A stretch of DNA of 64,000 nucleotides from a virus. Taxonomy: Duplodnaviria; Caudoviricetes. The notes beneath the pieces were generated by a model. It did no database searches. It was given only the letters and a program-made list of their open reading frames with translations, and was not told the origin of the DNA. Each line of letters starts with the position of its first letter. Within the stretch, counting starts at the first letter, position 1. Shown here one piece after another: positions 559 to 48,670 of the stretch. Made by a program: the position numbers and the translations under genes. The stretch covers positions 1 to 64,000 of the IMG/VR virus record IMGVR_UViG_3300032248_000400, one strand, 5' to 3'.

Positions 559-1506
559 ATGAGTTTCTTCGCAAACGAAAATAATAAAAAAGAACATTCC
601 CTTTGGGTGGAAAAATATAGACCATCAGAACTTTCAGAATATGTAGGTAACGAAACTATAAAAGAAACAATACAGCAGTATTTAGATGCAAATGATATTC
701 CACATTTACTATTTTATGGTAAAGCGGGTACAGGTAAAACCACACTTGCTAAACTAATCGTAAACACAATTAAATGTGACTTTATGATTATCAACGCATC
801 GGATGAAAACAATGTGGATACCGTTAGAACAAAAGTTAAGAACTTCGCATCATCAGTTGGATTTGCAGGTTTCAAAGTAATCATCTTAGATGAGTTTGAT
901 TATATGACACCGGGAGCACAAGCGATCCTTCGTAACTTAATGGAAACATTCAGTAAGCATTGCAGGTTTATCTTAACCTGTAATTACATTGAGAAAATTA
1001 TTGACCCTATCCAAAGTAGATGTCAATCTTTCGCAATTACACCTCCAACTAAAAAGGATGTAGCAGTTCAGGTAGCAAAGATATTAGATGCGGAAAAGAT
1101 TAAGTATGAACCAAAGAATATGGCTGATGTGATTAATTCATATTACCCAGATATTAGAAGAATACTTAATACTTGCCAACTTCAATCTGCAAAGGGTGAA
1201 TTGAAAGTAGACCATAGAGTAATGGTTGAAGCAAACTTTGCAACAAAGCTTATAGATTTACTGAAAGCAAATGATGATAAACGTAATATGTTTATGAATA
1301 TTAGGCAGGCAGTGGCAGATAATAAACTAAATGATTATTCAGAAATGTATACGATGCTATATGATAAAGTAGATGAGTATGCAAGTGGAAATACCGCAAA
1401 CGTTATACTTACTATTGCAGATGGATTATCCAAAGATGCATTAGTCGTAGATAAAGAAATCGTGTTTATGAGCACAATTATTCAAATTTTAAATATTATA
1501 AAATAA
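559..1506 (+). CDS. clamp loader AAA+ subunit (RFC small / T4 gp44-like)
   Basis: WVEKYRP, Walker A GKAGTGKTT, INASDE, Walker B ILDEFD, SRC motif. Confidence 0.95.
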   Translation: MSFFANENNKKEHSLWVEKYRPSELSEYVGNETIKETIQQYLDANDIPHLLFYGKAGTGKTTLAKLIVNTIKCDFMIINASDENNVDTVRTKVKNFASSVGFAGFKVIILDEFDYMTPGAQAILRNLMETFSKHCRFILTCNYIEKIIDPIQSRCQSFAITPPTKKDVAVQVAKILDAEKIKYEPKNMADVINSYYPDIRRILNTCQLQSAKGELKVDHRVMVEANFATKLIDLLKANDDKRNMFMNIRQAVADNKLNDYSEMYTMLYDKVDEYASGNTANVILTIADGLSKDALVVDKEIVFMSTIIQILNIIK

Positions 1507-1751
1507 TGGAACAACAATCACAAGGTGGGTTACCACCAAACTTCAATTTAAATGATGCAAGAGATATGACTTGCGAATGTGGTAGCAAACAATTTATGCC
1601 AGCATACCGATTTAAAAAAATATCACGTTTATTAACCGGTGCAGATAGAGATACGGTATTGCCAATCGAATTGTATTTATGTACGGGATGTGGTAAATCA
1701 TTACAAGAACTATTACCAGAAGAATTAAGAGAACAAAAAATCATTGAATAA
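1506..1751 (+). CDS. small Zn-ribbon protein
   Basis: CxC (CECG) and CxxC (CTGC); TAATG overlap with neighbours. Confidence 0.7.
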   Translation: MEQQSQGGLPPNFNLNDARDMTCECGSKQFMPAYRFKKISRLLTGADRDTVLPIELYLCTGCGKSLQELLPEELREQKIIE

Positions 1752-2203
1752 TGGCAGCTAAGAAGTTATTTGACCATATCAAAGCAATCACGGATGAACA
1801 GGATCCAAAATACTTCGATAAACTAACCGAAGAAGATTTAAAATCATGGAGTAATTTTATGATTAATCGTTTTCTTTCTATGAAACCTGAATGGGTAGAA
1901 CTAATTGCAACTTTACTTCCTTTGACGCAAACTCTGCAACCAAAGGAAATGTATAAGTTGTATATTAGTGTTATTCCAAAAGGAAAGCATTATCTAAAGT
2001 ATATAAAAGGTAAAGCTGATGAAAAGTACGAAGAATTTATAATCGAATTAATTAAAAAAGAATACGATTGTTCAGAAACTCAAGCAATAGATTATTTGGA
2101 AATACTATACTCAAATCGCGAGGGTAGAGAAGCTATAAAATTCATAGCTGAAAAATATGGTACTGTAAAAAAAGATATAACAAAATTAAAACTTAAGATA
2201 TAA
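1751..2203 (+). CDS. clamp loader small subunit (T4 gp62-like)
   Basis: Size, position next to gp44-like gene, WSNFMINRFLS segment. Confidence 0.65.
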   Translation: MAAKKLFDHIKAITDEQDPKYFDKLTEEDLKSWSNFMINRFLSMKPEWVELIATLLPLTQTLQPKEMYKLYISVIPKGKHYLKYIKGKADEKYEEFIIELIKKEYDCSETQAIDYLEILYSNREGREAIKFIAEKYGTVKKDITKLKLKI

Positions 2204-2235
2204 TTTGGTAAATTCAAATTATTTAGTTATATTAC
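2204..2235 (+). promoter_or_regulatory. Bacteroidota-type sigma70 promoter
   Basis: TTTG 2204, N20, TATATTAC 2228. Confidence 0.65.
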
Positions 2236-2239
2236 ATCT

Positions 2240-3115
2240 ATGGCAAGAGTATCATTTTCACAATACAGCATGTGGCATAGTTGTCCACAACAATACAAAT
2301 TAAGTTACATAGAGGGATTATCAGAATCCTCTTCAAATATACATAGTGTATTTGGCACCGCAATGCATGAAACAATTCAAAACTATTTAGAAAAATGTTT
2401 GAGAATATCAAAATCACAAGCTGATAAGATAATTGATTTAAAAGAATATCTCAAAGAAAGAATGAGAGAAACATATCTTAAAGAAGCAGGTGGTGAAATT
2501 AATTCATCAATTTGTACTAAAGATGAAATGGTTGAATTCTTAGAAGATGGGAATGTTTTATTAGATTGGTTTCAAAAATCAAAAAACTTTAATAAATTCT
2601 TTTCATTAAAAGATGATGAACTCATAGCAATTGAACAACCCATAAATACAAAGATTGCAAACAATGTAAACTTTATGGGATTTATAGATTTGATTACAAG
2701 AAGTAAATTCAGTAACAAATATCGTATCATAGATTTTAAAACTTCAACTAAGGGTTGGAGTAAGTATCAAAAATCAGATGCAGTTAAAAATGCACAAATC
2801 CTTTTATATAAAAAGTTTTACGCAGAACTTCTGAATATATCGGAAGATATGATAGATGTTGAGTTTATCATATTAAAAAGAAAGGTTGAGGTTAGAGAAG
2901 ATATACCAACACATAGGATGAGTAAACACATACCTGCAAATGGAAAACCATCAATCACTAAGGCCTGGAATGGATTTAAGGAGTTTGTAGACACTGTCTT
3001 TGATGAAGATGGTAAGTATAGGCTCAATATAGATTATCCCAAAAAAGCAACTAAACTATGCGAATGGTGTGAATTTTTTCATAGAGGACTATGTGATAGA
3101 GGTCTTAAAAATTAA
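2240..3115 (+). CDS. PD-(D/E)XK nuclease, RecB/Cas4-like with Fe-S cysteines
   Basis: SFSQ..W.SCP, FGTAMH, E...GFIDL...IIDFKT, C-terminal CEWCEF...C. Confidence 0.88.
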   Translation: MARVSFSQYSMWHSCPQQYKLSYIEGLSESSSNIHSVFGTAMHETIQNYLEKCLRISKSQADKIIDLKEYLKERMRETYLKEAGGEINSSICTKDEMVEFLEDGNVLLDWFQKSKNFNKFFSLKDDELIAIEQPINTKIANNVNFMGFIDLITRSKFSNKYRIIDFKTSTKGWSKYQKSDAVKNAQILLYKKFYAELLNISEDMIDVEFIILKRKVEVREDIPTHRMSKHIPANGKPSITKAWNGFKEFVDTVFDEDGKYRLNIDYPKKATKLCEWCEFFHRGLCDRGLKN

Positions 3116-9228: not shown

Positions 9229-9968
9229 AAAAACTTCCAATCAGTATAGGAATACTTTCCTGGCATAGTGGACAAGTATTAGTAGATACTTTAACCACAT
9301 ATTACGAAAATGGTTTATTTGATATGGTAAACGATGTTACTATTTTATTTCAGGAAGTAACTCCACAAGATTATGAAATCGCAAGACATTTTGGATTGGA
9401 TTTTATAGGTTTACAAAAAAACATTGGTATAGGTCAAGCATTTATTAGATTAACCGAAAATGCACAAACTGATAAAGTATTAGTATTGGAGCATGATTGG
9501 AATTTAATTGAAAATAGAGAAACTACCTATGAAAGATTGAATGATGGTATTAAAATATTGGGAAAATATGGTATGCATGCAGTTAGATATAGACATAGAC
9601 AGCAACCAGGTTATCCACACTTTTCATTTAGAAACAAAGGAAATGAGTTGAACTATTATGATGAAGAAATTCAATGTACATCACCGCACTTATTAGATTC
9701 ATTACATTGGTTAGACCCTTCTGTTGAATTTCCAGATAAGATACAATATTATGGTACTCACTTTCATACAACATCAAGATGGGGGAATTGGACTAATAAT
9801 CCAACTATGTACGATAAAGATTTTTATTTACAAACCGTTAGACAATTTGCCGGGGATGGAATAGCATTGGAAGGTAATATATCCAAATGGTGGGCACAGC
9901 AAGAATTTGGAGTTGCACATGGTGAAGGATTGTTTAAACATAACGATTATGTAAAATACGGAAAATGA
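9225..9968 (+). CDS. GT-A-like protein
   Basis: ISIGILSW, NIGIG, LVLEHDW; start trimmed to ATG 9225. Confidence 0.6.
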   Translation: MKKLPISIGILSWHSGQVLVDTLTTYYENGLFDMVNDVTILFQEVTPQDYEIARHFGLDFIGLQKNIGIGQAFIRLTENAQTDKVLVLEHDWNLIENRETTYERLNDGIKILGKYGMHAVRYRHRQQPGYPHFSFRNKGNELNYYDEEIQCTSPHLLDSLHWLDPSVEFPDKIQYYGTHFHTTSRWGNWTNNPTMYDKDFYLQTVRQFAGDGIALEGNISKWWAQQEFGVAHGEGLFKHNDYVKYGK

Positions 9969-11329
9969 CAAAATTAATTATATTTGATTTAGATGGTGTA
10001 CTAGTTTCGGCAAAACAAATACACTTTGATACTCTTAATAGAGCCTTATATGAAATAGACCCATATTACATTATATCCGAAGCTGAACATCTTTCAATAT
10101 ATGATGGATTAAAGACAACTCAAAAATTAGAACTGCTTACTAAGAATAAAGGATTAGATTCAAAATTTTATGATATTATTTGGAAAACAAAACAAGATTT
10201 GACGATTAGTGCTATTTCACAATTACAACCTGATTTAGAAAAAATTGAATTGTTTAAAGAATTAAGAGATAGAGGATATAAACTAGCATGCGCTTCAAAC
10301 TCAATTAGAAGGTCTGTATTAGTTATGTTAGCAAAGATAGGTATAATTGAGTATATGGATTTAATCCTCTCTAATGAGGATGTAAAGAACTCTAAACCAC
10401 ATCCTGAAATGTATTGGAAGGCAATGAGTATGATGGGATGTTTACCAGAGGAAACTCTTATTGTAGAAGATTCACCACATGGACTTTTAGCCGCAAGTAG
10501 AAGTAGAGCAAATATTTTGAGAGTAGATTCTCCAAAAGATTTGGTAATATCAAAAATTATTAGTAAATTAGATGAAACACAAAACACTATGAATATACCA
10601 AAATGGCAAGGAGGCAAGATGAACATTCTTATTCCAATGGCAGGAGCAGGAAGCCGATTCGCAACAGCGGGTTACACATTTCCTAAACCACTAATTGATG
10701 TAAAAGGAAAACCAATGATACAAGTTGTAGTTGATAATCTTAATATAGAAGCAACATACATTTATGTCGTTCAAAAAGAACACAGAGCAAAATATAATTT
10801 GGATACTTTGTTAAACTTAATTACTCCTAATTGTAAAATTGTGGAAATTGAAGGAATCACAGAGGGTGCAGCATGTACTACATTATTAGCAAAAGAATTT
10901 ATTGATTCGGATACTCCATTACTTATGGCAAACTCCGACCAATTTGTAGAATGGGATAGTAATGAGTTTATGTATAAGATGATTGAACAAAAAGTAGATG
11001 GTGGCATTTTAACATTCATTGGAACACATCCAAAGTATTCATTTGCAAAAGTAGATGAGTATGGATATGTTACTGAAGTCGCAGAGAAGAATCCAATTTC
11101 AGATATTGCAACTGTTGGAATTTATTATTGGTTAAAAGGTTCGGATTATGTAAAATATGCAGAACAAATGATTGATAATAATACTAAAACCAACAATGAA
11201 TTTTATGTATGTCCTGTTTATAATGAAGCCATTAATGCTGGTAAAAAAATTAAAATATTCAATATAGATAAAATGTGGTCATTAGGTACACCCGAAGATT
11301 TAAATTATTATTTAGAAAATTATAAATAA
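9965..11329 (+). CDS. HAD phosphatase fused to sugar-phosphate nucleotidyltransferase
   Basis: N-term DLDGVL, ASNS, KPHPE, VEDS; C-term PMAGAGSRF...PKPLIDV, TEGAACT, NSDQ, EK, LGTPEDL. Confidence 0.9.
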   Translation: MTKLIIFDLDGVLVSAKQIHFDTLNRALYEIDPYYIISEAEHLSIYDGLKTTQKLELLTKNKGLDSKFYDIIWKTKQDLTISAISQLQPDLEKIELFKELRDRGYKLACASNSIRRSVLVMLAKIGIIEYMDLILSNEDVKNSKPHPEMYWKAMSMMGCLPEETLIVEDSPHGLLAASRSRANILRVDSPKDLVISKIISKLDETQNTMNIPKWQGGKMNILIPMAGAGSRFATAGYTFPKPLIDVKGKPMIQVVVDNLNIEATYIYVVQKEHRAKYNLDTLLNLITPNCKIVEIEGITEGAACTTLLAKEFIDSDTPLLMANSDQFVEWDSNEFMYKMIEQKVDGGILTFIGTHPKYSFAKVDEYGYVTEVAEKNPISDIATVGIYYWLKGSDYVKYAEQMIDNNTKTNNEFYVCPVYNEAINAGKKIKIFNIDKMWSLGTPEDLNYYLENYK

Positions 11330-11946
11330 TGAAAATTGGCCTAAATATAGTTGGTATAACACATGATGATGGTAGACATACTAATTGGCAAAAATCAAAT
11401 ATAAAAGATAATATAATAAATATTCTTAATAAAAAATATGAAGTTAAAACATATTTGACCACATATTTTTCAGATAAAAATACAAAAAAAATAATAAAGC
11501 ATTATTCTCCAATTAATGTTAATATATTAGATTGGGAAAATAGTCACCAACTATTGACATATATTGAATCTCTAAAATCATTATTAAATGAAGATTTGGA
11601 TATAATAATTTCAACTAGATTTGATATATTTTTTAATCAAACATTTGATGAATTAAATATTGATTTTTCTAAATTTAATTTCTTATGTAAAGAATTAGAC
11701 CATTGGACTGATTATAAATTTACAAATGATAATTTTTACATTTTCCCTAAACAATATTTAGAAGAAGTTATTAACTCAATAGACGAAATGTATCAAATCC
11801 CACCTAGAAAACATTGTTCAGATATGCATGGGCTGTATAATTTTATTTCATCTAAAATAAATCCAAATAATATTCATTTTATTTCTGAAGACCATATGTA
11901 CTCCACAGAAAATAAATTTTATACTTTAACTAGATTTTTATCATAA
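11329..11946 (+). CDS. RFD-motif family protein 1 (putative transferase)
   Basis: MKIGLNIVG start and IISTRFDIFF shared with 14378, 16662 and 18508. Confidence 0.6.
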   Translation: MKIGLNIVGITHDDGRHTNWQKSNIKDNIINILNKKYEVKTYLTTYFSDKNTKKIIKHYSPINVNILDWENSHQLLTYIESLKSLLNEDLDIIISTRFDIFFNQTFDELNIDFSKFNFLCKELDHWTDYKFTNDNFYIFPKQYLEEVINSIDEMYQIPPRKHCSDMHGLYNFISSKINPNNIHFISEDHMYSTENKFYTLTRFLS

Positions 11947-11968
11947 TCAAAAAACAAATTAAAATAAA

Positions 11969-12000
11969 TTTGGAAAAGTTAAAAATTTTTATTAACTTGT
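11969..12000 (+). promoter_or_regulatory. Bacteroidota-type promoter upstream of the RLP operon
   Basis: TTTG 11969, N20, TAACTTGT 11993, in the only large gap of this part of the island. Confidence 0.5.
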
Positions 12001-12041
12001 ATAATATTAAATCTAATAAGATTAATTAAAAAATAACCATA

Positions 12042-12491
12042 ATGATATTAATATCACATAGAGGTAATACCAACGGAAAGTTTGAATCATACGAAAACGA
12101 ACCAGCATATATTGACAAAGCAATATTGGAAGGATTTGATGTTGAAATAGATGTGTGGATGGTTGAAGGTCAATTATTTTTAGGACATGATATTCCACAA
12201 TATGGTGTTTCACAACATTGGTTTAGCAAAAGATTACAACATTTATGGATACATTGTAAAAATATAGAAGCAGTGGAATGGTTTAATATGCTTAATAGTT
12301 ATCATTATTTTTGGCATGAAGGAGACACATTAACACTTACATCGATGAATGTTATTTGGGCATATCCTGGTAAACAACCAATCAAAGGAAGTATTGCAGT
12401 AATGCCTGAAATTCATAATGATGATTTGGAGAGTTGTATGGGAATTTGTTCGGATTATATAAACAATTATAAAATAAAAAATAATGAATAA
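12042..12491 (+). CDS. short PLC/GDPD-like phosphodiesterase
   Basis: ISHRGN, GFDVEIDVW, LGHD, WIHCKN. Confidence 0.75.
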   Translation: MILISHRGNTNGKFESYENEPAYIDKAILEGFDVEIDVWMVEGQLFLGHDIPQYGVSQHWFSKRLQHLWIHCKNIEAVEWFNMLNSYHYFWHEGDTLTLTSMNVIWAYPGKQPIKGSIAVMPEIHNDDLESCMGICSDYINNYKIKNNE

Positions 12492-12837
12492 ATACAAAAA
12501 AAATTATATCATATCTTCTCACAAATACTTTGAATTGTTTGGTAGTTATGATTTAAACGGATTAAAAGAAATCTATGATAGCAAAATCCATCTTATTGAT
12601 TGGAATGGTGAATGGTTAGGTTCAAAATCAGTATTAGAAATGAATGAGAATTTATTTAAAGCAACACCAATTATAACAGTTTTAGAAATAATTCAATCGG
12701 ATAAAGAAATTAATGATATTCAAAGAACTTATTGTAAAATTCAAATTGAAATAAATGGTGTTACATTAAAAGTAATGGATGTTATTGATTGGAATGATAA
12801 TCATCAAATTATTAAAATAGAAGCATTTAACGGATAA
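12484..12837 (+). CDS. SnoaL/NTF2-like protein
   Basis: DLNGLKEIY..I.L.DW, VMDVI.W....I.KIEAF pattern. Confidence 0.6.
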   Translation: MNKYKKNYIISSHKYFELFGSYDLNGLKEIYDSKIHLIDWNGEWLGSKSVLEMNENLFKATPIITVLEIIQSDKEINDIQRTYCKIQIEINGVTLKVMDVIDWNDNHQIIKIEAFNG

Positions 12838-12846
12838 ACATAAAAT

Positions 12847-13188
12847 ATGGATATATTTAAAATAGAAGAAATGAAAGGAGGTTGGTTTGCAGGAAATTTT
12901 GAACCAACTGCATTTAAAACTGATAAGTTTGAAGCCGCAATTCATAGTTATAAAATGGGTGAAATAAAAGAAGCACATTTTCATAAAGAAGCAACGGAAG
13001 TTAATTATTTATTAGAAGGTAAATTTGTTCTTCAAAATTATGATGGAAATGGTTCATCAAAAGAATTAAATAAAGGTGATGTATTTATTATACATCCGTT
13101 TGAAATAGCAGACCCTTTGTTTTTAGAAGATTGTAAAATAATAGTTATAAAAACTCCATCAGTAATTGGAGACAAATACATAGTATAA
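12847..13188 (+). CDS. cupin-domain protein
   Basis: GGWFAGNF, HFHKEATEVN, GDVFIIHP. Confidence 0.8.
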   Translation: MDIFKIEEMKGGWFAGNFEPTAFKTDKFEAAIHSYKMGEIKEAHFHKEATEVNYLLEGKFVLQNYDGNGSSKELNKGDVFIIHPFEIADPLFLEDCKIIVIKTPSVIGDKYIV

Positions 13189-14376
13189 ATGATAAACATT
13201 TTTAGAAAAGAAGTAGATACAAATAAGTATTTTATTGTAACCTACGAATTAGCATCAGAAACAAATTTAAGAGATGCGGCATGGAATTTGGCAATAGGTC
13301 AAAGTGTAGGAAATCCAAATGTTAGAAACCAATGGGAAACTGATGAGTTGTTTGAAAATCATAGTTGTTTGGTATTGGCAAATGAAGATGAACTTAAATC
13401 TACCAATAGTGGATTGGTTAACATTGCATTTCCAATTGCAAATATTGATTTTAAAACCGATGGTATTTCACATTTATTAGTGAATATTATGGGTGGACAA
13501 ATGGACATTGATAACATTACTAAATGTGCCGTTAAAGATATTTTCTTTCCACAACATATTGAAGATTTATTCTTAGGGCCTAAATTTGGTATCAAAGGAA
13601 TTAGAGAATATACTAAAACATTTGATAAACCATTATTTGGTGCAATCGTAAAACCTAAAATTGGTATTAGTCCAGAAACATTGTTAGAAATGGTTAAAGA
13701 ATTAGTAGAAGGTGGAGTAAATTTTATTAAAGAAGATGAGATTATGAGTAATCCGGCTTTTTGTACAATTGAAGAAAGGGTACCATTGATTGCAGAATAC
13801 CTAAAAGATAAAAATGTAGTTTATTGTGTATCAATTCATTCAGATTATCCACACATTTTAGATAGAGTTAAAAGAGTATATGAATTGGGTGGTAATGGTG
13901 TTCATATCAATTTTTGGTGTGGATTGGGTGTTTATAAAGCAGTAAGAGAATTGGATTTACCTATCTTTATACACTTCCAAAAAAGTGGAGATAAAATTTT
14001 TACAAATAGAAACCATGCGTATTATATCGATTGGACTGTTGTATGTAAATTGGCAGGTATGATGGGAGTTGATTTTATTCATGCTGGTATGATTGGTGGA
14101 TATTACAAATGGCCAGAAGATGAAGTTATTGATTCAATGAAAGTATTACATCAATATGGTGTAATGCCTGCATTAAGTTGTGGATTTCAACCTGGTCTTA
14201 CTAAATGGGTAACCGATAGAGTTGGTATTGATTATATGGCAAATGTGGGTGGAGCTATACATGGTCATCCAATGGGAACATTATCTGGTGCAAAAGCAAT
14301 GAAACAAAGTATTGATGGGACATATGGTGATGAATATAATCATGCAATTGCAAAATGGGGATTAAAGACTAATTAA
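13189..14376 (+). CDS. RuBisCO-like protein (form IV RLP)
   Basis: GPKFG, IVKPKIG, GGVNFIKEDE, DFIHAG, LSCG, NVGGAIHGHP; lacks the E60, N123, R295 and K334 equivalents. Confidence 0.92.
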   Translation: MINIFRKEVDTNKYFIVTYELASETNLRDAAWNLAIGQSVGNPNVRNQWETDELFENHSCLVLANEDELKSTNSGLVNIAFPIANIDFKTDGISHLLVNIMGGQMDIDNITKCAVKDIFFPQHIEDLFLGPKFGIKGIREYTKTFDKPLFGAIVKPKIGISPETLLEMVKELVEGGVNFIKEDEIMSNPAFCTIEERVPLIAEYLKDKNVVYCVSIHSDYPHILDRVKRVYELGGNGVHINFWCGLGVYKAVRELDLPIFIHFQKSGDKIFTNRNHAYYIDWTVVCKLAGMMGVDFIHAGMIGGYYKWPEDEVIDSMKVLHQYGVMPALSCGFQPGLTKWVTDRVGIDYMANVGGAIHGHPMGTLSGAKAMKQSIDGTYGDEYNHAIAKWGLKTN

Positions 14377-14377
14377 T

Positions 14378-15058
14378 ATGAAAGTTGCATTATTATTAAC
14401 CGGATTACCTAGAAAAGTTGAAGAAGGTTATATTCATTATTGGAAACATATTGTAGAAAACTATAATACAGATGTTTACTTACAATATTGGGAAGATGAA
14501 GAATATGAAAAAGTTTTGCAAGTGTATAAACCTGTAAAATACATTCAGGAAAAACCATTTAAATTTACAAAATACAAAGAAGGAATTAATTCTTTTTTTG
14601 CAGATGGTGTTAGACCGGATGATATGTCCAGACCATTACCACAATACGATGTAGCTGGAAATTTTAGAGGATTTCCTATGTTTTATAGTTGGCAAATTGG
14701 ATATAATTTAATAGAAGGTGAATATGATTGTATTATAAGAAGTAGATACGATTTGGGTACACAAAATCCAATTAAATTAGAAAATTTAGATTTATCAAAA
14801 ATAAACATTTCAAATTGGCATTGGGGTGGTTCGGAAATAATGGATGATAATATTTGTATAACAAACCAAACATTATCAGATATATTATTTAAAGATGTAT
14901 TTGATGAATTTATAAATTATTCAAAACAAACAGGTAAAATATTTTTTCAAGAAAAGAATTTTACTGAAATTTTAAATAGAAAAAATTTAAATAACTATAT
15001 TTGTAAAACAAACGAATTGCCATTCACCTTATTAAGAGAGATGGGATTATGGTATTAA
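14378..15058 (+). CDS. RFD-motif family protein 2
   Basis: MKVALLLTG, IIRSRYDL. Confidence 0.55.
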   Translation: MKVALLLTGLPRKVEEGYIHYWKHIVENYNTDVYLQYWEDEEYEKVLQVYKPVKYIQEKPFKFTKYKEGINSFFADGVRPDDMSRPLPQYDVAGNFRGFPMFYSWQIGYNLIEGEYDCIIRSRYDLGTQNPIKLENLDLSKINISNWHWGGSEIMDDNICITNQTLSDILFKDVFDEFINYSKQTGKIFFQEKNFTEILNRKNLNNYICKTNELPFTLLREMGLWY

Positions 15059-15068
15059 AACAAAAAAT

Positions 15069-16259
15069 ATGAAAAAAATAAACACACCAATTCAATTATT
15101 TAAAGTGCATATGAATCCAAATGCAAAAATTGAAGTTGGTAAAATATTAGACAGTGGTTATATAGGACAAGGGCCTAAAGTAGATGAATTTGAAGTAAAA
15201 TTAAATGAATACTTTAATTCGGATAGAGTTGTAACGCTTAATTCAGGTACATCTGGATTACATCTTGCATTACATCTATTAAAGAAATCATCGAATCCAG
15301 TAACGGCCGATGGTTATTCGGTTCATGAAAGAAATTGGCCAGGTATTCAAAGTGGTGATGAAATACTTGCAACTGCATTAACTTGTACCGCATCCAACTG
15401 GCCTATACTTGCAAACGGATTAAAAATTAAATGGGTAGATATTGATGAGAAAACTCTTAATATGGACTTAGATGATTTAGAAAGAAAAATTTCACCAAAC
15501 ACAAAAGCAATTATTGCAGTACATTGGGGAGGGTATCCATTGGATTTAGATAGATTGAAAAAAATACAAGATAAATCATTTGAGTTATATGGATTTAGAC
15601 CTGCAATCATAGAAGATGGGGCACACTCATTTGGTTCCGAATATAAAGGAAAAAAATTGGGTAATCACGGAAATATGGTTATGTATTCTTTACAGGCAAT
15701 CAAACACATTACTGCAATTGATGGTGGATTATTAATATTACCACATCAGGATTTATACAATAGAGCAAAGTTAATTCGTTGGTATGGTATTGACAGAGGT
15801 GGTAATAGAAAAGATTTTCGTTGTGAAGCGGATATTGTAGAGTGGGGATTTAAGTTCCATATGAATGATGTATGTGCAACGGTTGGTATGGAGAATTTAA
15901 AAGACGCTGAAACCATTATTGGAAAACATAGAGCAAACGCTAAATTTTATGATGAGAATTTAAAAGGTGTTAATGGTGTAACTCTATTAGAAAGAAACCC
16001 AAACCATAATTCTGCATTTTGGATTTATAGTTTATTGGTTGAAAATAGAGATGGATTCTATAAACATATGAAAGATTGTGGAATTGTAGTATCACAGGTT
16101 CACGAAAGAAATGATAAACATACGGCAGTAAAAGAGTTTAGAAGTCCATTACCTACATTGGATAGAGTATTACCAAAAGTAGTTTCAATACCAGTAGGTT
16201 GGTGGATAACCGAAGAAGAAAGACAATACATCGTTGATTGTATTAAAAAAGGTTGGTAA
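15069..16259 (+). CDS. DegT/DnrJ/EryC1/StrS PLP sugar aminotransferase
   Basis: NSGTSGLHLAL, VHWGG, IEDGAH, SLQAIKHIT..DGG. Confidence 0.95.
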   Translation: MKKINTPIQLFKVHMNPNAKIEVGKILDSGYIGQGPKVDEFEVKLNEYFNSDRVVTLNSGTSGLHLALHLLKKSSNPVTADGYSVHERNWPGIQSGDEILATALTCTASNWPILANGLKIKWVDIDEKTLNMDLDDLERKISPNTKAIIAVHWGGYPLDLDRLKKIQDKSFELYGFRPAIIEDGAHSFGSEYKGKKLGNHGNMVMYSLQAIKHITAIDGGLLILPHQDLYNRAKLIRWYGIDRGGNRKDFRCEADIVEWGFKFHMNDVCATVGMENLKDAETIIGKHRANAKFYDENLKGVNGVTLLERNPNHNSAFWIYSLLVENRDGFYKHMKDCGIVVSQVHERNDKHTAVKEFRSPLPTLDRVLPKVVSIPVGWWITEEERQYIVDCIKKGW

Positions 16260-16678
16260 TGAATTTAAGACAATTATCCATATCAGATTTATCATTTTTG
16301 TTAGAAGTCAGGAACGATGAAACAACAAGAGTAAATTTAGAAAACGATTCGGTATTTACATTAGCACAATGTGAAGAATGGTTTTTAATTAGGGAACCAA
16401 AGTGGTATATAATTGAAATTGATGGTAGTAGGGTTGGGTATATCAGAACAAATGGTGTTGAAGTTGGTATAGATATTCATCCAAATTATAGAAGAAATGG
16501 ATATGCAAGAGAAGCATATAAACTTTATTTAAAAGATAAACAATATGCATCTCTTTGGGTATTTGTTGATAATTTTGCCAAAACACTTTATACTCGATTG
16601 GGATTTATAGAAAACGGAAATAAAAAAATAATTAGAGATAGAGAATACATACAAATGATTTATGAAAATAGGAATTAA
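16259..16678 (+). CDS. GNAT N-acetyltransferase (PseH-like)
   Basis: IHPNYRRNGYAREA acetyl-CoA motif; TAATG coupling to the aminotransferase. Confidence 0.82.
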   Translation: MNLRQLSISDLSFLLEVRNDETTRVNLENDSVFTLAQCEEWFLIREPKWYIIEIDGSRVGYIRTNGVEVGIDIHPNYRRNGYAREAYKLYLKDKQYASLWVFVDNFAKTLYTRLGFIENGNKKIIRDREYIQMIYENRN

Positions 16679-17375
16679 TTTAGTCGGCATATCTTATAAC
16701 GATGGTATAAATGGTGGTAGATATAGAAATTATCAGGATGCCATAGATGGATTTATGTTGAATATTGTCAATCCTTTAAAAAAAGAAGGCCACGAAATAA
16801 TATTTTACATTTATAGTTACGATAATATCAAAAAAAATGATATTTTAGAAGCATATCAACCTGTTAAAAAATATCATTTTACAGAACCATCAAATATAAC
16901 AATGGCCGGCCGAGATAAGTTACCAAATGGATTTAAAATGGTATCTTCAATGTATATTGGTAGTTTAATTGAACTTAAAGATGAAAATTTAGATTTAGTA
17001 ATATCAACTCGTTTTGATATTAATTTTTTGAAAAATCCATTTAAAAAATATAATTATGATTTTACCAAATTTAATTTTTTATGGAGAGAACCTTACTTAA
17101 CTCATATACCACTTATAACAGATGTATTTGTAGTATTTCCATATTCAATGTTAGATAATGTAATTGAATCTATTAAAGAACTGGAATTTAATCCAAAAGA
17201 TGATATAAATATTTCAATGCACAATTGGTATGCACCTATGGTAAATCAAGTTGGAAAAGAAAATGTTCAATGGGTTTGTGATGAATTTCCTGATTCAATT
17301 AGTAATGATGTATATAAATTAATGAGAAGTGAAGAGGGCCAGATTATTTACAATGATGGCCAAAAAGCCAATTAA
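16662..17375 (+). CDS. RFD-motif family protein 3
   Basis: MKIGINLVGISY, LDLVISTRFDINF; close paralog of 18508. Confidence 0.6.
   Translation: MKIGINLVGISYNDGINGGRYRNYQDAIDGFMLNIVNPLKKEGHEIIFYIYSYDNIKKNDILEAYQPVKKYHFTEPSNITMAGRDKLPNGFKMVSSMYIGSLIELKDENLDLVISTRFDINFLKNPFKKYNYDFTKFNFLWREPYLTHIPLITDVFVVFPYSMLDNVIESIKELEFNPKDDINISMHNWYAPMVNQVGKENVQWVCDEFPDSISNDVYKLMRSEEGQIIYNDGQKAN
17248..17288 (+). repeat. 41 bp exact direct repeat, copy 1
   Basis: AAGTTGGAAAAGAAAATGTTCAATGGGTTTGTGATGAATTT, identical at 19094-19134. Confidence 0.95.
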
Positions 17376-17388
17376 AAAAATAAACACT

Positions 17389-18498
17389 ATGGAAAATAAT
17401 AGAGAACATTGTGTTTTGTGTGGTTCTGAAATTGTAGACAAATATACAACTAAAATGCCTGTATTTATGGGCACTATTGAAAATATTTTTAATTATAAAA
17501 CAAATTCTTATACAATATGTGAATGTGTTAAGTGTGGTGAAATTATGATTAAAGAACTATTAAATTTAAAAGATGTTTATTTAAATAATCATAATATTGA
17601 TGTTGTTGGTAATCTATGGAGTAATCATTATAATCAGTTTTCAAATTTTATTTTAAATGATATTGAAGATAAAATAATATTGGAAATTGGCGACCCATCT
17701 GCAAAAATTGCAAGTATATCTAAAAAATTTAAAAAATGGTATATTGTAGAGCCAAATTTTAACAAATCAAATACGGATAATATTATTTTTATAAATAATT
17801 TTTTTGATAATTCATTTGATACTATAAAAGATGTTGATGTTATTATCCATTCACATTACTTTGAACATTCATATGACCCAAATCAATTTTTAAAAAAATG
17901 TAATGAAAATTTAAAAAATGATGGAACTATGTTTATGAGTGTTCCAAATATGGAATATCTTTTAAATAATAAAAAACAAATAGCATCTATACTTCATTTT
18001 GAGCATACGTTTTATTTAAATGACGAAATTATTACTTATTTATTAAATAAAAATGGATTTTCAATTGAATTGAAAGAAAATTATGAAAATCATTCTATTT
18101 TTTATAAAATTAAAAAAACAGACAAATCAATAAAAAATATAAAATTAAAAATTTCATCTAAATTTAATAATACTTGGAATAAAACATTAATTAATATTCA
18201 AAATATAAATAACATATTAAAAAATATCAATCATACAAATATTTACATTTATGGTGCACATGTAAATACACAATTTTATTTATATAATGGAATTGATATT
18301 AATAAAATAAAAGGAATTATAGATAATTCAAAAAGCAAAAAAAATAAAATACTTTATGGAACTAATAAAATGGTTAATAGTCCAGATAGTATTGAAAATA
18401 TGGATGAATGTATTGTTATTTGTAGTCACACCGGTGTATATTATAATGAAATATCACAACAATTAAAAAGTATAAATAAAAAAATAAAAATAATATAA
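17389..18498 (+). CDS. class I SAM methyltransferase, sugar C-methyltransferase-like
   Basis: N-term CxxC...CxxC, ILEIG, SHYFEH, C-term IYGA domain; start trimmed to ATG 17389. Confidence 0.8.
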   Translation: MENNREHCVLCGSEIVDKYTTKMPVFMGTIENIFNYKTNSYTICECVKCGEIMIKELLNLKDVYLNNHNIDVVGNLWSNHYNQFSNFILNDIEDKIILEIGDPSAKIASISKKFKKWYIVEPNFNKSNTDNIIFINNFFDNSFDTIKDVDVIIHSHYFEHSYDPNQFLKKCNENLKNDGTMFMSVPNMEYLLNNKKQIASILHFEHTFYLNDEIITYLLNKNGFSIELKENYENHSIFYKIKKTDKSIKNIKLKISSKFNNTWNKTLINIQNINNILKNINHTNIYIYGAHVNTQFYLYNGIDINKIKGIIDNSKSKKNKILYGTNKMVNSPDSIENMDECIVICSHTGVYYNEISQQLKSINKKIKII

Positions 18499-18507
18499 AA
18501 ACAACTT

Positions 18508-19182
18508 ATGAAAATAGGAATCAATTTAAACGGAGTATCGTATCACGATGGTTCAAGTTATAGACGTAGAAATTACGCAGATTCAATTGAAGGATTTACA
18601 AATAATGTAATTAATCCACTTAAAGAAGCCGGACATGAAATATCATATTATTTATTTACATATGAGTCAGAAAAAAAGGATGAAATATTAAAAGCATATA
18701 ATCCAGTAAAATCAACATTCATTGCAACTGAAAGTAATTATAATAATTTAACAAGTGGTGATAGACTTCCAAATGGTTATAGAATGATGACGTTAACAAC
18801 AATAAATTCATTAAACGAATTAGTAGAGGAAGATTTGGATTTAGTTATATCTACAAGATTTGATATTAATTTTTTTAAAAATCCATTTGAAGAATACAAT
18901 TATGATTTTAGCAAATGTAACTTTTTGTGGAGAGAACCCGAATTTACTGATTTACCAATAGTTAATGATACGTTTATTGTATTTCCACATCATATGATTG
19001 TCAGTTTAATGGAATCACTTATGGAACAAGAGGAAAATCCACCATATGGTGTAAATCCAGGAAATCATAACATTTATTTACCAATGATTAATAAAGTTGG
19101 AAAAGAAAATGTTCAATGGGTTTGTGATGAATTTGTAAATGTTAATACTAATACTTTATATAAATTAATGAGAAATGAGTAA
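18508..19182 (+). CDS. RFD-motif family protein 4
   Basis: MKIGINLNGVSY, LDLVISTRFDINF. Confidence 0.6.
   Translation: MKIGINLNGVSYHDGSSYRRRNYADSIEGFTNNVINPLKEAGHEISYYLFTYESEKKDEILKAYNPVKSTFIATESNYNNLTSGDRLPNGYRMMTLTTINSLNELVEEDLDLVISTRFDINFFKNPFEEYNYDFSKCNFLWREPEFTDLPIVNDTFIVFPHHMIVSLMESLMEQEENPPYGVNPGNHNIYLPMINKVGKENVQWVCDEFVNVNTNTLYKLMRNE
19094..19134 (+). repeat. 41 bp exact direct repeat, copy 2
   Basis: Identical to 17248-17288. Confidence 0.95.
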
Positions 19183-21496: not shown

Positions 21497-21985
21497 ATGA
21501 TTATAGGTAAAGGCGATATCGCATCTATTTTGAACGATAGAGAAGGTGCAATATTTTTTGCATCTGGGGTTTCGAAAAGTAGTGAAACAAATGAGGCTGA
21601 ATTTAATCGTGAAATTGAATTATTAAATAAGCAAGATAAAACTAAGTGTTTATTTTATTTCAGCTCTATTTCAATAGATGATACTCAAAAATTGTCAAAT
21701 AGATATTTACAACATAAAAAGAGTATGGAGGAATTAGTTAAATCCAATTTTAAAAATCATAACATCATACGAATTGGAAATATTACGTGGGGTAGTAATC
21801 CAAACACTTTTATTAACTACATTAGGAACAAAATTAAAAATGGAGAACCTGTTGAAATAAAAGATGAGTTTAAGTATCTAATTGATAAAGAGCAATTGCT
21901 TCTATTAACCAATAATTTACCACTAACAGGTCAAAACAAAATAAGTATATTCGGGAGAATGGCCAAAGTAAAGGAATTGATATGA
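21497..21985 (+). CDS. short NAD-dependent epimerase/dehydratase-like protein
   Basis: MIIGKG.IAS, FASGVS, YFSS, Y.QHK..ME. Confidence 0.65.
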   Translation: MIIGKGDIASILNDREGAIFFASGVSKSSETNEAEFNREIELLNKQDKTKCLFYFSSISIDDTQKLSNRYLQHKKSMEELVKSNFKNHNIIRIGNITWGSNPNTFINYIRNKIKNGEPVEIKDEFKYLIDKEQLLLLTNNLPLTGQNKISIFGRMAKVKELI

Positions 21986-44812: not shown

Positions 44813-45224
44813 GGGGATGTTTGGAATCGATTGCTATGCAAAAGATAGTACCACATGCAGAGATATCGTATTAGTTCTCTTTAAATCTATACGAAACAAT
44901 AACTGACGCTAAGTCAACAATGACCTTCGATGACCTTATGGCATTCGTAGGTGCGGATTACGCTGTAGCAGCCTAGTCCAACTCGGGTGAGTAACCTAGG
45001 AACAGAACTACTCTGAGCGTTCACGATCGACTCATTAAATAAAGATAGTGGAAATGGTTTTCTTTGTTTCATAAAACAAAGTGGTGGACTCGGCCCATAA
45101 AACGGTCAACCCTATACGGTGCAGACCATTTCGTTGGTATCAACAAAATGGCCAGTACTAAGCATGTGAATCTCTGGTATTATAGTTTCTTAGTAAGACG
45201 CGAGTTCGAATCTCGCCATCTCCA
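44813..45224 (+). ncRNA. ssrA: tmRNA; tag (A)DAKSTMTFDDLMAFVGADYAVAA*
   Basis: GGGGATG/CATCTCC-A acceptor stem with G3:U; T-arm GCGAG-TTCGAAT-CTCGC; ATAACT before resume codon GAC 44905; TAG 44974-44976. Confidence 0.96.
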
Positions 45225-45325
45225 CGAATATTATTTAAGTATGGTAATCCTACTAACACAACTAGCGGACTTGAATAATAAATAAAAAAAGATTTGGTGA
45301 ATTGAAAAATTTATCCTATCTTACA

Positions 45326-46460: not shown

Positions 46461-46531
46461 GCGGAATTAGTGTAACGGTAGCACACTTACCTTCCAGGTG
46501 AGAGGATGGAGTTCAATTCTCTGGTCCCGCT
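46461..46531 (+). tRNA. tRNA-Gly(TCC), imperfect stems, no encoded CCA
   Basis: CTTAC-CTTCCAG-GTGAG anticodon arm, TTCAATT T-loop, U73. Confidence 0.8.
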
Positions 46532-46547
46532 CTATATGATATAAGTT

Positions 46548-47505: not shown

Positions 47506-47592
47506 GCCCCGGTGGTGAAATTGGTAGACACGCAGGACTTAAAATCCTGTTCGCCGAAAAAGCGAGTGCGGGTTCAAGTCCCGCTTGGGGCA
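47506..47592 (+). tRNA. tRNA-Leu(TAA), no encoded CCA
   Basis: CAGGA-CTTAAAA-TCCTG, long variable arm, GCGGG-TTCAAGT-CCCGC. Confidence 0.96.
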
Positions 47593-47598
47593 CAATAT

Positions 47599-48521: not shown

Positions 48522-48670
48522 AATATGGGCATTAGTGGATATGCCAAAAAGAAAAATAGATGTTTTTCATCCACTTATCGCAGGTATAGTACAATTGTAA
48601 GTGCTCTGATATTCCAAATCAGAAAAGGTCAGTTCGATCCTGACACCTGTTCAAATCTAACTATAATGCA

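What the first reader, a model, noticed from the sequence alone, without database searches (positions are those of the whole stretch)
9965..15058. RuBisCO-like protein embedded in a phage sugar-nucleotide operon
Seen: HAD-nucleotidyltransferase fusion, RFD protein, GDPD-like, SnoaL-like, cupin, RLP, RFD protein; the cupin stop directly abuts the RLP ATG. By-eye alignment (plant RbcL numbering) keeps K175, K177, K201, D203, E204, H294, H327, S379 and G403/G404 but lacks E60, N123, R295 and K334. Knowledge: form IV RLPs are enolases, isomerases or (de/trans)carboxylases on phosphosugar-like substrates in methionine salvage and apionate-type catabolism. Inference: here the RLP is used anabolically to make an unusual keto or branched sugar phosphate, which is then nucleotide-activated and transferred. 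I know of no such described pathway.
Basis: partly seen in the sequence, partly recalled or inferred. Interest (0 to 1): 0.82.

Follow-up and report, generated by a model that had tools for sequence, protein, structure and literature searches.

The report
Phage RuBisCO-like sugar-activation cassette
A large T4-like phage carries an intact RuBisCO relative that lacks four residues needed for CO2 fixation and that, in viruses, bacteria and archaea, sits beside or is fused to one particular sugar-activating enzyme, so it probably prepares an unusual activated unit for surface sugars, a role never tested for this enzyme family.

Summary
One residue call is wrong: H294 is Gln, and the His it saw aligns with H292.

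The 395-aa RLP belongs to a well-supported clade (SH-aLRT 99). Members come from phages, SAR11, DPANN archaea, CPR bacteria, Legionella, Nonomuraea, Azospirillum and Turneriella. All share one active-site signature. K175, K177, K201, D203, E204, H327, S379, G381 and G403/404 are kept. E60, N123, H294 and K334 are lost.

It is not an MtnW enolase, an OiaX decarboxylase or a carboxylase. It fits the phage "form IV-like" clade of Jaffe et al., whose function is unknown.

Linkage is strong:
- A 4EVW-like nucleotidyltransferase lies within 5 kb in 80 of 83 viral loci, and a family match is present in 46 of 50 cellular loci.
- A small cupin and a miniature GDPD-like enzyme are usually present.
- Pairwise fusions exist: RLP-NTase, GDPD-RLP, NTase-cupin, GDPD-DUF7796 and HAD-NTase.

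Within this cassette the RLP and a C-terminal HAD phosphatase on the NTase are nearly mutually exclusive (p = 4e-11, not corrected for relatedness).

The aminotransferase, GNAT, SnoaL-like gene and most glycosyltransferases are not conserved partners. Substrate and product remain unknown.

This scan has flagged the same cassette before on other DNA (at least 48 genomes).

The parts
9965..11329 (+). Fusion of an N-terminal HAD-IA (beta-phosphoglucomutase-like) domain with a C-terminal 4EVW-like ('BcbE-type') sugar-phosphate nucleotidyltransferase. It is the only NTase of this family in the window.
   Evidence: Pfam and NCBIfam. The NTase domain is 37-65% identical to the stand-alone NTases that flank RLPs in other loci. 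The family profile hits PDB 4EVW at E 4e-34, against 7e-10 for the next hit, RmlA. The same fusion occurs in L005, L006, L012, L035 and in a complete Pelagibacter chromosome.
11329..11946 (+). DUF7796 / 'RFD' paralogue, a putative GT-A-fold transferase.
   Evidence: It aligns with the three other window paralogues. It is not a conserved RLP neighbour (3 loci).
12042..12491 (+). Miniature (149 aa) GDPD/PLC-like phosphodiesterase. It is a core cassette member.
   Evidence: Present in 68 of 83 viral loci within 5 kb. Invariant residues are H6, R7, E18, N19, E35, D37, H49 (and D50 in at least 90%), H71 and K73. PDB profile hit. Model pLDDT 95 with GDPDs as top fold matches. DPANN loci carry a full-length PF03009 GDPD instead. 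Fused to an RLP in P0150 and to DUF7796 in L008.
12484..12837 (+). Small SnoaL/NTF2-like protein. The assignment is weak and the gene is specific to this window.
   Evidence: PF12680 E 1.6e-3, below the cut-off. No PDB match. No homologue in 83 related loci.
12847..13188 (+). Small single-domain cupin with an HxH...E metal motif. It is a core cassette member, and its stop codon abuts the RLP start.
   Evidence: PF07883. Present in 65 of 83 viral loci, mostly directly upstream of the RLP. Invariant H44, H46, E51. Fused to the NTase in L037, L039, L040, L078 and L079. PDB matches are only generic (quercetinase, a 113-aa mannose-6-P isomerase, KdgF).
13189..14376 (+). RuBisCO-like protein of the NTase-linked 'form IV-like' clade.
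14378..15058 (+). DUF7796 / 'RFD' paralogue with a GT-A-like model. An RxD motif stands at the position I take (by eye, not tested) to be that of the usual DxD.
   Evidence: Model pLDDT 88. Foldseek top hits are glycogenin (GT8) and GT6 enzymes at E ~3e-5, prob 1.00. DUF7796 also sits directly after the NTase in an RLP-less gammaproteobacterium (L171).
15069..19182 (+). Variable tailoring tail, not conserved with the RLP: DegT/PseC-like aminotransferase (15069-16259), GNAT (16253-16678), DUF7796 paralogue (16662-17375), methyltransferase with a weak (E 1.9e-3, below the Pfam cut-off) match to the C-methyltransferase C-terminal domain (17329-18498), DUF7796 paralogue (18508-19182).
   Evidence: Homologues were found in only 1-6 of the 83 related loci.

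Best explanation
The RLP is a working, Mg-dependent enolising enzyme (an isomerase, epimerase or tautomerase type, not a carboxylase). It belongs to a portable donor-synthesis cassette whose constant member is a 4EVW-like nucleotidyltransferase.

Inferred order of steps:
1. The RLP binds a phosphorylated alpha-hydroxy-ketone, such as a ketose phosphate or a related acid-sugar phosphate. It uses the retained P1 phosphate site and the carbamylated-Lys/Asp/Glu metal site.
2. It enolises and rearranges this substrate.
3. The small cupin performs a further isomerisation.
4. The NTase couples the phosphate to an NMP, giving an NDP-activated unit.
5. Transferases encoded nearby put that unit on a surface glycan. 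These are DUF7796 GT-A-like proteins and GT2 here, GT2 in Nonomuraea and Turneriella, and LicD in Legionella.

The mini-GDPD belongs to the same pathway, but its step is unknown.

In related cassettes without an RLP, the NTase carries a C-terminal HAD phosphatase instead. The RLP therefore seems to fill the slot that delivers the monophosphate substrate to the NTase.

Shown here: family membership, residue pattern, purifying selection, synteny, fusions, and the mutual exclusion with the HAD domain. Inferred: the reaction type, the order of steps and the glycan destination. Unknown: substrate, nucleotide, product and acceptor.
For: Catalytic core.
- The core residues are invariant from phage to Legionella, while four residues that carboxylation needs are absent.
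- dN/dS is 0.07-0.08.

Distinct clade.
- The family is monophyletic (SH-aLRT 99). The representative search shows a score gap, from 236 bits or more inside the family to 165 or less outside.

Linkage.
- NTase within 5 kb in 80 of 83 viral loci, cupin in 65, GDPD-like in 68.
- An NTase-family match in 46 of 50 cellular loci (one only weak, 57 bits), usually the next gene. These include a complete Pelagibacter chromosome, three Legionella species, Nonomuraea rosea, Turneriella and DPANN archaea.
- All 62 cupin-anchored viral loci have the NTase.

Fusions confirmed with domain HMMs.
- RLP-NTase (P0122).
- GDPD-RLP (P0150, a fragment).
- NTase-cupin (five loci).
- GDPD-DUF7796 (L008).
- HAD-NTase.

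Glycan context.
- Glycosyltransferases or LicD flank the pair everywhere examined.

Slot equivalence.
- An NTase with a C-terminal HAD-IIIB domain occurs in 17 of 22 RLP-less loci and in 1 of 49 RLP-bearing cupin-anchored loci. Fisher p = 4e-11. It occurs in 1 of 83 RLP-anchored loci.

Asymmetry.
- In 400 sampled Gammaproteobacteria, 10 genomes have the NTase family but only Legionella has this RLP. The other nine pair the NTase with combinations of HAD, cupin, GDPD-like or DUF7796 genes.
- An E. coli plasmid operon places a class II aldolase/epimerase-family enzyme in a similar cassette.

Literature lead.
Against: - No biochemical datum exists for any member, and sequence cannot give the substrate.
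- In this window the NTase is the HAD-fused form and lies 1.9 kb upstream, with three genes in between, rather than adjacent.
- A phosphate next to a ketone on C1 is not anomeric. A simple 'ketose-1-P to NDP-sugar glycosyl donor' route is therefore chemically incomplete. It needs a mutase step or a phosphodiester-type transfer.
- The exclusion statistic is not corrected for relatedness among loci, and some loci are near-duplicates.
- I did not test that the window's NTase is homologous to BcbE, because no BcbE sequence was available. That label comes from earlier notes of this scan and from my memory of CDD.
- The record is only about one third of the genome, so missing partners (kinase, SDR) may lie elsewhere.
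- Some 'cellular' MAG contigs may be phage contamination. The complete Pelagibacter chromosome and the Legionella isolates are not.
Confidence: 0.6

Rival explanations
1. The cassette makes a CDP-ribitol- or CDP-choline-like donor of a phospho-alcohol, phospho-ketose or phospho-acid, not a glycosyl donor. The NTase activates a primary phosphate. The unit is then transferred with its phosphate as a phosphodiester substituent. The GDPD-like enzyme edits or supplies that phosphodiester.
For: - LicD, a phospho-alcohol transferase family, is the only transferase next to RLP-NTase in Legionella.
- GDPD or mini-GDPD is a core member, full-length in DPANN loci.
- Known RLP substrates carry a primary phosphate beside the carbonyl (established knowledge of MtnW, the R. 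rubrum RLP and OiaX).
- The NTases give weak IspD and MobA-like (NTP_transf_3) matches.
Against: - Most loci pair the cassette with GT-A or GT2 glycosyltransferases, not LicD.
- After 4EVW, the NTase profile is closest to sugar-1-P enzymes such as RmlA and mannose-1-P guanylyltransferase.
Confidence: 0.2
2. The order is reversed. The NTase acts first on a common sugar phosphate or bisphosphate. The RLP (or, in other cassettes, the HAD phosphatase) then works on the nucleotide-linked intermediate, using its phosphate site for a remaining phosphate or for the diphosphate.
For: - RLP and the C-terminal HAD phosphatase are mutually exclusive. A phosphatase fused after an NTase could act after it.
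- K/R295 and H327 of the second phosphate site are retained.
- Fusions do not fix the order of steps.
Against: - No known RuBisCO-superfamily enzyme takes a nucleotide-linked substrate.
- In the heptose pathway (GmhB/HddC, established knowledge) the HAD phosphatase acts before the NTase.
Confidence: 0.12
3. The RLP is an auxiliary metabolic gene for salvage or catabolism (methionine or 5'-deoxynucleoside salvage, or acid-sugar breakdown), and only happens to lie in a glycan island.
For: - All characterised RLPs are catabolic or salvage enzymes.
- RLP + HAD + cupin recalls MtnW + MtnX + MtnD of Bacillus methionine salvage (established knowledge).
Against: - The window RLP scores far below the cut-offs of the MtnW and OiaX models and sits in a clade separate from true MtnW and from the OiaX / acid-sugar-kinase-linked RLPs.
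- Its G103 stands at the N123 column, where the MtnW-clade sequences have Lys.
- The cupin gives no match to the ARD family.
- HAD is rare in RLP loci.
- Adjacency and fusion to an NTase across domains of life are not expected for salvage.
- No acid-sugar kinase lies nearby, unlike the OiaX-type loci.
Confidence: 0.05
4. It is a true or cryptic carboxylase (form III-like) working in nucleotide salvage, as in archaea and CPR bacteria.
For: - The best PDB and NCBIfam similarity is to form III enzymes.
- The family occurs in DPANN archaea and CPR bacteria.
Against: - E60, N123, H294 and K334 are all missing and loop 6 is shortened.
- The form III model scores 177 bits against a cut-off of 497.
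- No AMP phosphorylase or R15P isomerase lies beside it. The IF-2B fusions P0157 and P0187 score 131-158 bits (30-32% identity), below the family's score gap.
Confidence: 0.02

Closest known systems
'Form IV-like' RuBisCO-related proteins of phages and Beckwithbacteria (Jaffe, Castelle, Dupont & Banfield; bioRxiv 10.1101/386292, also PMC6389311)
   Same: Phage-borne and highly divergent from other RLPs. Key residues are only partly kept. The family groups with Beckwithbacteria sequences: a Beckwithbacteria MAG protein (L093) is 55% identical and falls inside the same SH-aLRT-99 clade.
   Different: That paper left the function open. As far as the passages I read go, it reports neither the NTase, cupin and GDPD linkage, nor the fusions, nor the spread to SAR11, Legionella, Nonomuraea and DPANN archaea. 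I could not compare directly with its sequences.
DK-MTP-1-P enolase MtnW/YkrW (methionine salvage)
   Same: The same fold and metal site (K175, K201, D203, E204). It enolises a 1-phospho-2-keto substrate. In Bacillus it works with a HAD phosphatase and a cupin dioxygenase.
   Different: The window RLP scores 149 and 122 bits against cut-offs of 409 and 514. It has Gly, not Lys, at the N123 position, and Gln, not His, at H294. It sits in a separate clade. Its context is an NTase and glycan genes, not mtn genes.
3-oxo-isoapionate-4-phosphate decarboxylase OiaX and RLPs linked to four-carbon acid-sugar kinases
   Same: RLPs that act on a phospho-keto acid sugar. About 27-30% identity to the window RLP.
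   Different: 140 bits against a cut-off of 700. A separate clade. Those genes sit beside acid-sugar kinases, which are absent here.
The 4EVW / 'BcbE-type' nucleotidyltransferase cassette of capsule loci (P. multocida bcbE/F/G, E. coli K4 kfoE region)
   Same: The NTase family of PDB 4EVW. It has HAD, cupin, GDPD-like and DUF7796 partners in RLP-less bacteria. Genetics tie bcbE and bcbG to a fructose side chain (PMC13552107) and kfoE to K4 fructosylation (PMC8858990).
   Different: Those capsule cassettes have no RLP, and their enzymology is also unsolved. Homology of the window's NTase to BcbE or KfoE themselves was not tested here.
GmhB/HddC-type 'phosphatase then nucleotidyltransferase' logic of GDP-heptose synthesis
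   Same: A HAD phosphatase coupled or fused to an NTP_transferase that activates the resulting sugar-1-phosphate (established knowledge). This parallels the NTase-HAD fusions in RLP-less cassettes.
   Different: Different HAD and NTase subfamilies. The substrate is unknown, and here an RLP stands in place of the phosphatase.

Membership tests
Carboxylating RuBisCO (forms I-III) | Full catalytic set including E60, N123, H294 and K334 on loop 6 | tested here: not met
   The residues are Gly37, Gly103 and Gln264, and loop 6 is shortened without the Lys. Sequences with the full signature form other branches.
Carboxylating RuBisCO (forms I-III) | Score above the curated NCBIfam cut-offs | tested here: not met
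   Form III 177 bits against 497. PRK04208 164 against 438. Form II 94 against 489.
RuBisCO large-subunit superfamily (Pfam PF00016/PF02788) | Both domains above the gathering score; metal site K201/D203/E204 and K175 | tested here: met
   113 bits against 30.1, and 20.8 against 20.7. Residues.
DK-MTP-1-P enolase (MtnW/YkrW) | Equivalog HMM cut-offs; Lys at the N123 position; placement in the MtnW clade | tested here: not met
   149 bits against 409 and 122 against 514. Gly103 at that position. True MtnW sequences (P0251, P0255) form a separate clade with support 100.
OiaX / acid-sugar RLPs | Equivalog cut-off; a neighbouring four-carbon acid-sugar kinase | tested here: not met
   140 bits against 700. 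No such kinase in the annotated island. Reference loci have one.
'Form IV-like' phage/Beckwithbacteria RLP clade (Jaffe et al.) | Phage-borne; clusters with Beckwithbacteria RLPs apart from classical form IV clades | tested here: inconclusive
   It clusters with a Beckwithbacteria MAG sequence inside a clade with SH-aLRT 99.
4EVW-like ('BcbE-type') nucleotidyltransferases | Specific similarity to PDB 4EVW well above other NTP_transferases | tested here: met
   Family profile E 4e-34 to 4EVW, against 7e-10 to RmlA.
4EVW-like ('BcbE-type') nucleotidyltransferases | Homology to P. multocida BcbE; product is an activated fructose | not tested
   No BcbE sequence or assay was available. The genetics are in PMC13552107. 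The label comes from earlier scan notes and from memory.
Glycerophosphodiester phosphodiesterase (GDPD, PF03009) | Catalytic HR...EN...ExD...HD motifs | tested here: met
   These residues are invariant or nearly so in 58 sequences.
Glycerophosphodiester phosphodiesterase (GDPD, PF03009) | Full (beta/alpha)8 barrel of about 240 aa; Pfam gathering score | tested here: not met
   Only 149 aa. No Pfam hit at E<=0.01. Fold matches to GDPDs have TM about 0.5 and E about 3e-3. It is a trimmed relative.
DUF7796 (PF25072) / GT-A glycosyltransferases | Pfam match; GT-A fold; DxD motif | tested here: inconclusive
   19 of 44 family members match PF25072, but the window's 14378-15058 itself does not at E<=0.05. 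The GT-A fold is supported. In the family alignment R123 is nearly invariant and D125 invariant, giving an RxD motif; that it replaces the usual DxD is my reading by eye.

The most novel reading that the evidence does not exclude
A whole branch of the RuBisCO superfamily, spread through phages, giant viruses, SAR11, DPANN archaea, CPR bacteria and Legionella, works anabolically. It reshapes a ketose (or branched or keto-sugar) phosphate that a dedicated nucleotidyltransferase then activates. The result would be an NDP-ketose-type donor of a kind whose biosynthesis has, as far as I know, not been worked out. That donor would mark virions or cell surfaces with a rare sugar.
Probability: 0.35. 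Interest if true: 0.85.

Novelty: new variant of a known kind. Interest (0 to 1): 0.7.

Why it matters
Every characterised RuBisCO-like protein works in salvage or catabolism. An RLP clade tied to a nucleotidyltransferase in surface-glycan loci would give the fold a biosynthetic role.

It would also give a handle on an unsolved problem, namely how microbes activate ketoses or other odd units for capsules, LPS and virion glycans.

The clade is abundant in the sea: more than 2,500 metagenome proteins match at E <= 1e-10, and the best 120 are 71-90% identical to this one. It is present in SAR11.

It can be tested now, because cultured hosts carry compact versions of the cassette (Legionella nautarum, L. 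maceachernii, L. drozanskii, Nonomuraea rosea, Azospirillum oleiclasticum).

For phage biology, it suggests that large T4-like phages build their own unusual sugar donors. These may serve for virion or host-surface decoration.

Tried and rejected
- **Phage collection.** tblastn of the RLP against the GenBank phage collection found no match.
- **Broad alignment as a genome query.** I used the family-only alignment instead.
- **Complex prediction.** The RLP + cupin job gave no verdict (score 0.00). I do not use it as evidence either way.
- **A first cluster that misled.** Single-linkage clustering joined the window's methyltransferase (17329-18498) to a family found in 34 loci. Sub-clustering and Pfam showed that family is an SDR epimerase/dehydratase present in 28 loci. 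The methyltransferase itself occurs in only 2-6 loci. I dropped the claim of a conserved C-methyltransferase.
- **A second cluster that misled.** The mini-GDPD and the RFD family also joined in that clustering. The link is one fusion protein in L008, not homology.
- **RLP in place of a 4,6-dehydratase.** I considered that the RLP replaces the missing dehydratase for the DegT aminotransferase, since no SDR is in the 73.6-kb record. I rejected this as a general reading. The aminotransferase is not conserved with the RLP, many related loci do have an SDR, and the record is incomplete.
- **Methionine-salvage analogy** (RLP + HAD + cupin = MtnW + MtnX + MtnD). Rejected for the reasons given under rival explanations.
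- **Testing the BcbE/KfoE link by sequence.** No BcbE sequence could be reached. A distant DNA search of E. coli genomes found a related plasmid cassette instead.
- **Literature.** Searches for RLP together with phage, nucleotide sugar, nucleotidyltransferase, or SAR11 plus glycosyltransferase, and for the IV-GOS clade, found nothing on function.

Full report
**What is in the window**

The window is the first 64 kb of a 73.6-kb IMG/VR virus record estimated to be one third complete. All genes lie on one strand and G+C is about 30%. It carries T4-like clamp-loader subunits, a PD-(D/E)XK nuclease, an ATP-dependent DNA ligase, a tmRNA and three tRNAs.

From about 3.1 to 22.9 kb runs a glycan island. 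It holds GT2- and GT1/GT4-like glycosyltransferases, methyltransferases, a hexapeptide acyltransferase, a DegT aminotransferase and a GNAT.

- HAD-nucleotidyltransferase fusion (9965-11329)
- an 'RFD' protein (11329-11946)
- a 149-aa GDPD-like protein (12042-12491)
- a weak SnoaL-like protein (12484-12837)
- a 113-aa cupin (12847-13188)
- the 395-aa RLP (13189-14376), whose ATG follows the cupin stop directly
- a second 'RFD' protein (14378-15058)

**The RLP itself**

Pfam finds both RuBisCO large-subunit domains. The closest solved structures are form III enzymes (8DHT, 3A13; E about 1e-36), followed by RLPs. No curated NCBIfam equivalog is reached: form III scores 177 against a cut-off of 497, MtnW 149 against 409 and 122 against 514, and OiaX 140 against 700.

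Two independent alignments agree on the residues.
- Kept: K175, K177, K201, D203, E204, H327, S379, G381, G403, G404.
- Changed: E60 is Gly37, N123 is Gly103, H294 is Gln264, R295 is Lys265. Loop 6 is four residues shorter and has no K334.

The metal and enolisation core and the P1 phosphate site are intact. Residues that carboxylation needs are gone, including those around loop 6. The gene is under strong purifying selection (dN/dS 0.07-0.08).

**Family and phylogeny**

More than 2,500 metagenome proteins match at E <= 1e-10. The best 120 are 71-90% identical, and some carry marine sources such as Tara. At the 50% clustering level the family reaches down to about 38% identity (236 bits). Scores then drop to 165 bits or less for other RuBisCO/RLP forms.

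I built a maximum-likelihood tree of 129 sequences. Its references are a form I enzyme and an OiaX named by their genome annotation, two RLPs annotated only as family members but lying beside acid-sugar kinase genes, and MtnW and form III-like sequences labelled by their NCBIfam scores.

All 41 sequences with the signature G-G-K-K-K-D-E-Q-K/R-H-S-G-G-G form one clade with SH-aLRT 99. This clade is separate from the MtnW clade (support 100) and from the OiaX group. Deeper nodes are unresolved.

The clade includes a Beckwithbacteria MAG sequence. This fits the 'form IV-like' phage clade of Jaffe et al., who reported about 90 phage RLPs of unknown function.

It is not confined to phages. Members occur in:
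- a complete Pelagibacter chromosome and many SAR11 single-cell genomes
- Woese-, Nano-, Pace- and Micrarchaeota
- Saccharibacteria and Verrucomicrobia
- Legionella nautarum, L. maceachernii and L. drozanskii
- Nonomuraea rosea, Azospirillum oleiclasticum and Turneriella

**Conserved neighbours**

Among the 83 related viral and metagenome loci in which the RLP was found, the counts within 5 kb of the RLP are as follows:

| Partner | Loci (of 83) | Usual position |
|---|---|---|
| Nucleotidyltransferase of one family | 80 | 1-2 genes upstream |
| Small cupin | 65 | directly upstream |
| Mini-GDPD | 68 | within a few genes |
| HAD-IA domain | 9 | fused in 4 |

O-methyltransferases (CmcI-like in 35 loci, FkbM in 27) and an SDR (28 loci) are frequent extras. 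The window's aminotransferase, GNAT, SnoaL-like gene, glycosyltransferases and RFD paralogues each recur in only 0-16 loci, so they are local tailoring genes.

In 50 cellular loci a match to the NTase family is present in 46, one of them only weak (57 bits), and it is usually the adjacent gene. Examples:
- Legionella: LicD divergent from RLP-NTase.
- Nonomuraea: RLP-cupin-NTase-GT2-2-hydroxyacid dehydrogenase.
- Turneriella: GT2 divergent from RLP-cupin-NTase.
- Pelagibacter: glycan islands with GT9, GT17, GT61, ADP-heptose genes and the same HAD-NTase fusion as in the window.
- DPANN loci: a full-length Pfam GDPD in place of the mini form.

**Fusions**

Domain HMMs confirm the following fusions:
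- RLP-NTase (P0122, 667 aa)
- GDPD-RLP (P0150, cut by a contig end)
- NTase-cupin (L037, L039, L040, L078, L079)
- GDPD-DUF7796 (L008)
- HAD-NTase

Every core component is thus joined to another somewhere. This is strong evidence for a single pathway.

**The partners**

*Nucleotidyltransferase.* The family profile matches PDB 4EVW, a Vibrio cholerae 'nucleoside-diphosphate-sugar pyrophosphorylase' from structural genomics, at E 4e-34. The next hits, RmlA and mannose-1-P guanylyltransferases, are at about 1e-9.

*Mini-GDPD.* The catalytic motifs are invariant. The model is confident (pLDDT 95) and its best fold matches are GDPDs, though it is trimmed to 149 aa.

*Cupin.* It has an HxH...E site and only generic relatives.

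*RFD proteins.* They belong to Pfam DUF7796. The model of 14378-15058 (pLDDT 88) matches GT-A glycosyltransferases such as glycogenin and GT6 enzymes. An RxD motif appears to stand where DxD is usual, so these are probably transferases. DUF7796 also follows the NTase directly in an RLP-less gammaproteobacterium.

**RLP as an optional module of a wider cassette**

In 400 sampled Gammaproteobacteria, the NTase family occurs in 10 genomes. Only Legionella has this RLP. The other nine pair the NTase with combinations of HAD, cupin, GDPD-like and DUF7796 genes.

An E. coli plasmid carries this operon: NTase, GtrA, GT2, PLC/GDPD, a kinase, HAD, and a class II aldolase/epimerase-family enzyme.

I then anchored on the cupin in viral contigs. 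All 62 loci with enough flank have the NTase, and 45 have the RLP. In loci without the RLP, the NTase carries a C-terminal HAD-IIIB-type phosphatase domain. That domain occurs in 17 of 22 RLP-less loci and in 1 of 49 RLP-bearing loci (Fisher p = 4e-11). It occurs in 1 of the 83 RLP-anchored loci.

The counts are not corrected for relatedness. Even so, the pattern says that the RLP and a phosphatase are alternative fillers of one slot next to the NTase.

**Literature**

I found no paper that links RLPs to nucleotidyltransferases or nucleotide sugars.

A 2026 study shows that bcbE and bcbG are needed for the fructose side chain of the Pasteurella multocida type B capsule (PMC13552107). kfoE is needed for fructosylation of the E. 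coli K4 capsule (PMC8858990).

Earlier notes of this scan call the 4EVW-like NTase 'BcbE-like'. I could not test that homology. If it holds, the cassette's normal business is to activate a ketose, which is the type of substrate that RuBisCO-fold enzymes bind.

**Most likely mechanism**

The RLP enolises and rearranges a phosphorylated alpha-hydroxy-ketone. The cupin isomerises further. The NTase makes the NDP-linked unit. GT-A, GT2 or LicD transferases install it on a glycan. The step carried out by the mini-GDPD is unknown. I put about 0.6 on this general scheme.

Open alternatives:
- The unit is transferred with its phosphate as a phosphodiester. LicD and GDPD point this way.
- The NTase acts before the RLP.

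Salvage or catabolism, and carboxylation, are unlikely for the reasons given under the rival explanations.

**Status**

The RLP clade is known, but the functional linkage is not in the literature I could search.

This scan has reported the same cassette before on other DNA: 78 notes in at least 48 genomes, several followed up with the same conclusion. My tests were run independently on this window. They add the RLP versus NTase-HAD exclusion, the GDPD-RLP fusion and the GT-A fold of DUF7796.

Noticed in passing
window 44813-45225; tRNAs at 46461-46532, 47506-47593, 48579-48652: The phage encodes a tmRNA (tag peptide ending ...ADYAVAA) and three tRNAs (Gly-TCC twice, Leu-TAA).
   Followed up: no
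window 559-3115: T4-like clamp-loader pair (an AAA protein of 315 aa and Phage_clamp_A) and a PD-(D/E)XK nuclease lie directly upstream of the glycan island. A DNA ligase is at 58918-60027.
   Followed up: partly
window 12042-14376 compared with L005, L007, L008: Mosaic conservation. The RLP is about 90% identical to these relatives, but the adjacent cupin is only about 60% and the mini-GDPD about 57%. This suggests recombination or very different evolutionary rates within the cassette.
   Followed up: partly
window 11329-11946, 14378-15058, 16662-17375, 18508-19182: Four paralogues of the uncharacterised DUF7796 family lie in one island. The modelled paralogue has a GT-A fold, and an RxD motif stands in place of the usual DxD.
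   Followed up: yes
P0183 (583 aa), from the representative search: A TIR domain fused to the N-terminus of a different RLP (30% identical to the window's). It may be a defence-type fusion.
   Followed up: no
P0157, P0187 (726 and 742 aa): IF-2B-family domain (the MtnA / ribose-1,5-bisphosphate isomerase family) fused to a complete RuBisCO-like protein outside this clade.
   Followed up: no
L176 (E. coli plasmid NZ_CP145712.1, 6022-14984): An operon of double NTase, GtrA, GT2, PLC/GDPD-family protein, a 660-aa 'uridine kinase', HAD, a class II aldolase/adducin-family protein and a 586-aa hypothetical protein. It looks like a Gtr-type glycan-modification module with its own donor synthesis.
   Followed up: partly
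L172, L173, L174 (unnamed Gammaproteobacteria): Proteins of 557-573 aa that carry two NTase-family matches in one frame.
   Followed up: no
window 21497-21985: A 162-aa ORF with only a weak match to part of the RmlD substrate-binding domain. It may be a remnant or a divergent short SDR. No full SDR is present in the 73.6-kb record.
   Followed up: partly
L204:8843-9454 and neighbouring RLP-less viral loci: A Sulfotransfer_2-family protein sits in some RLP-less versions of the cassette.
   Followed up: no
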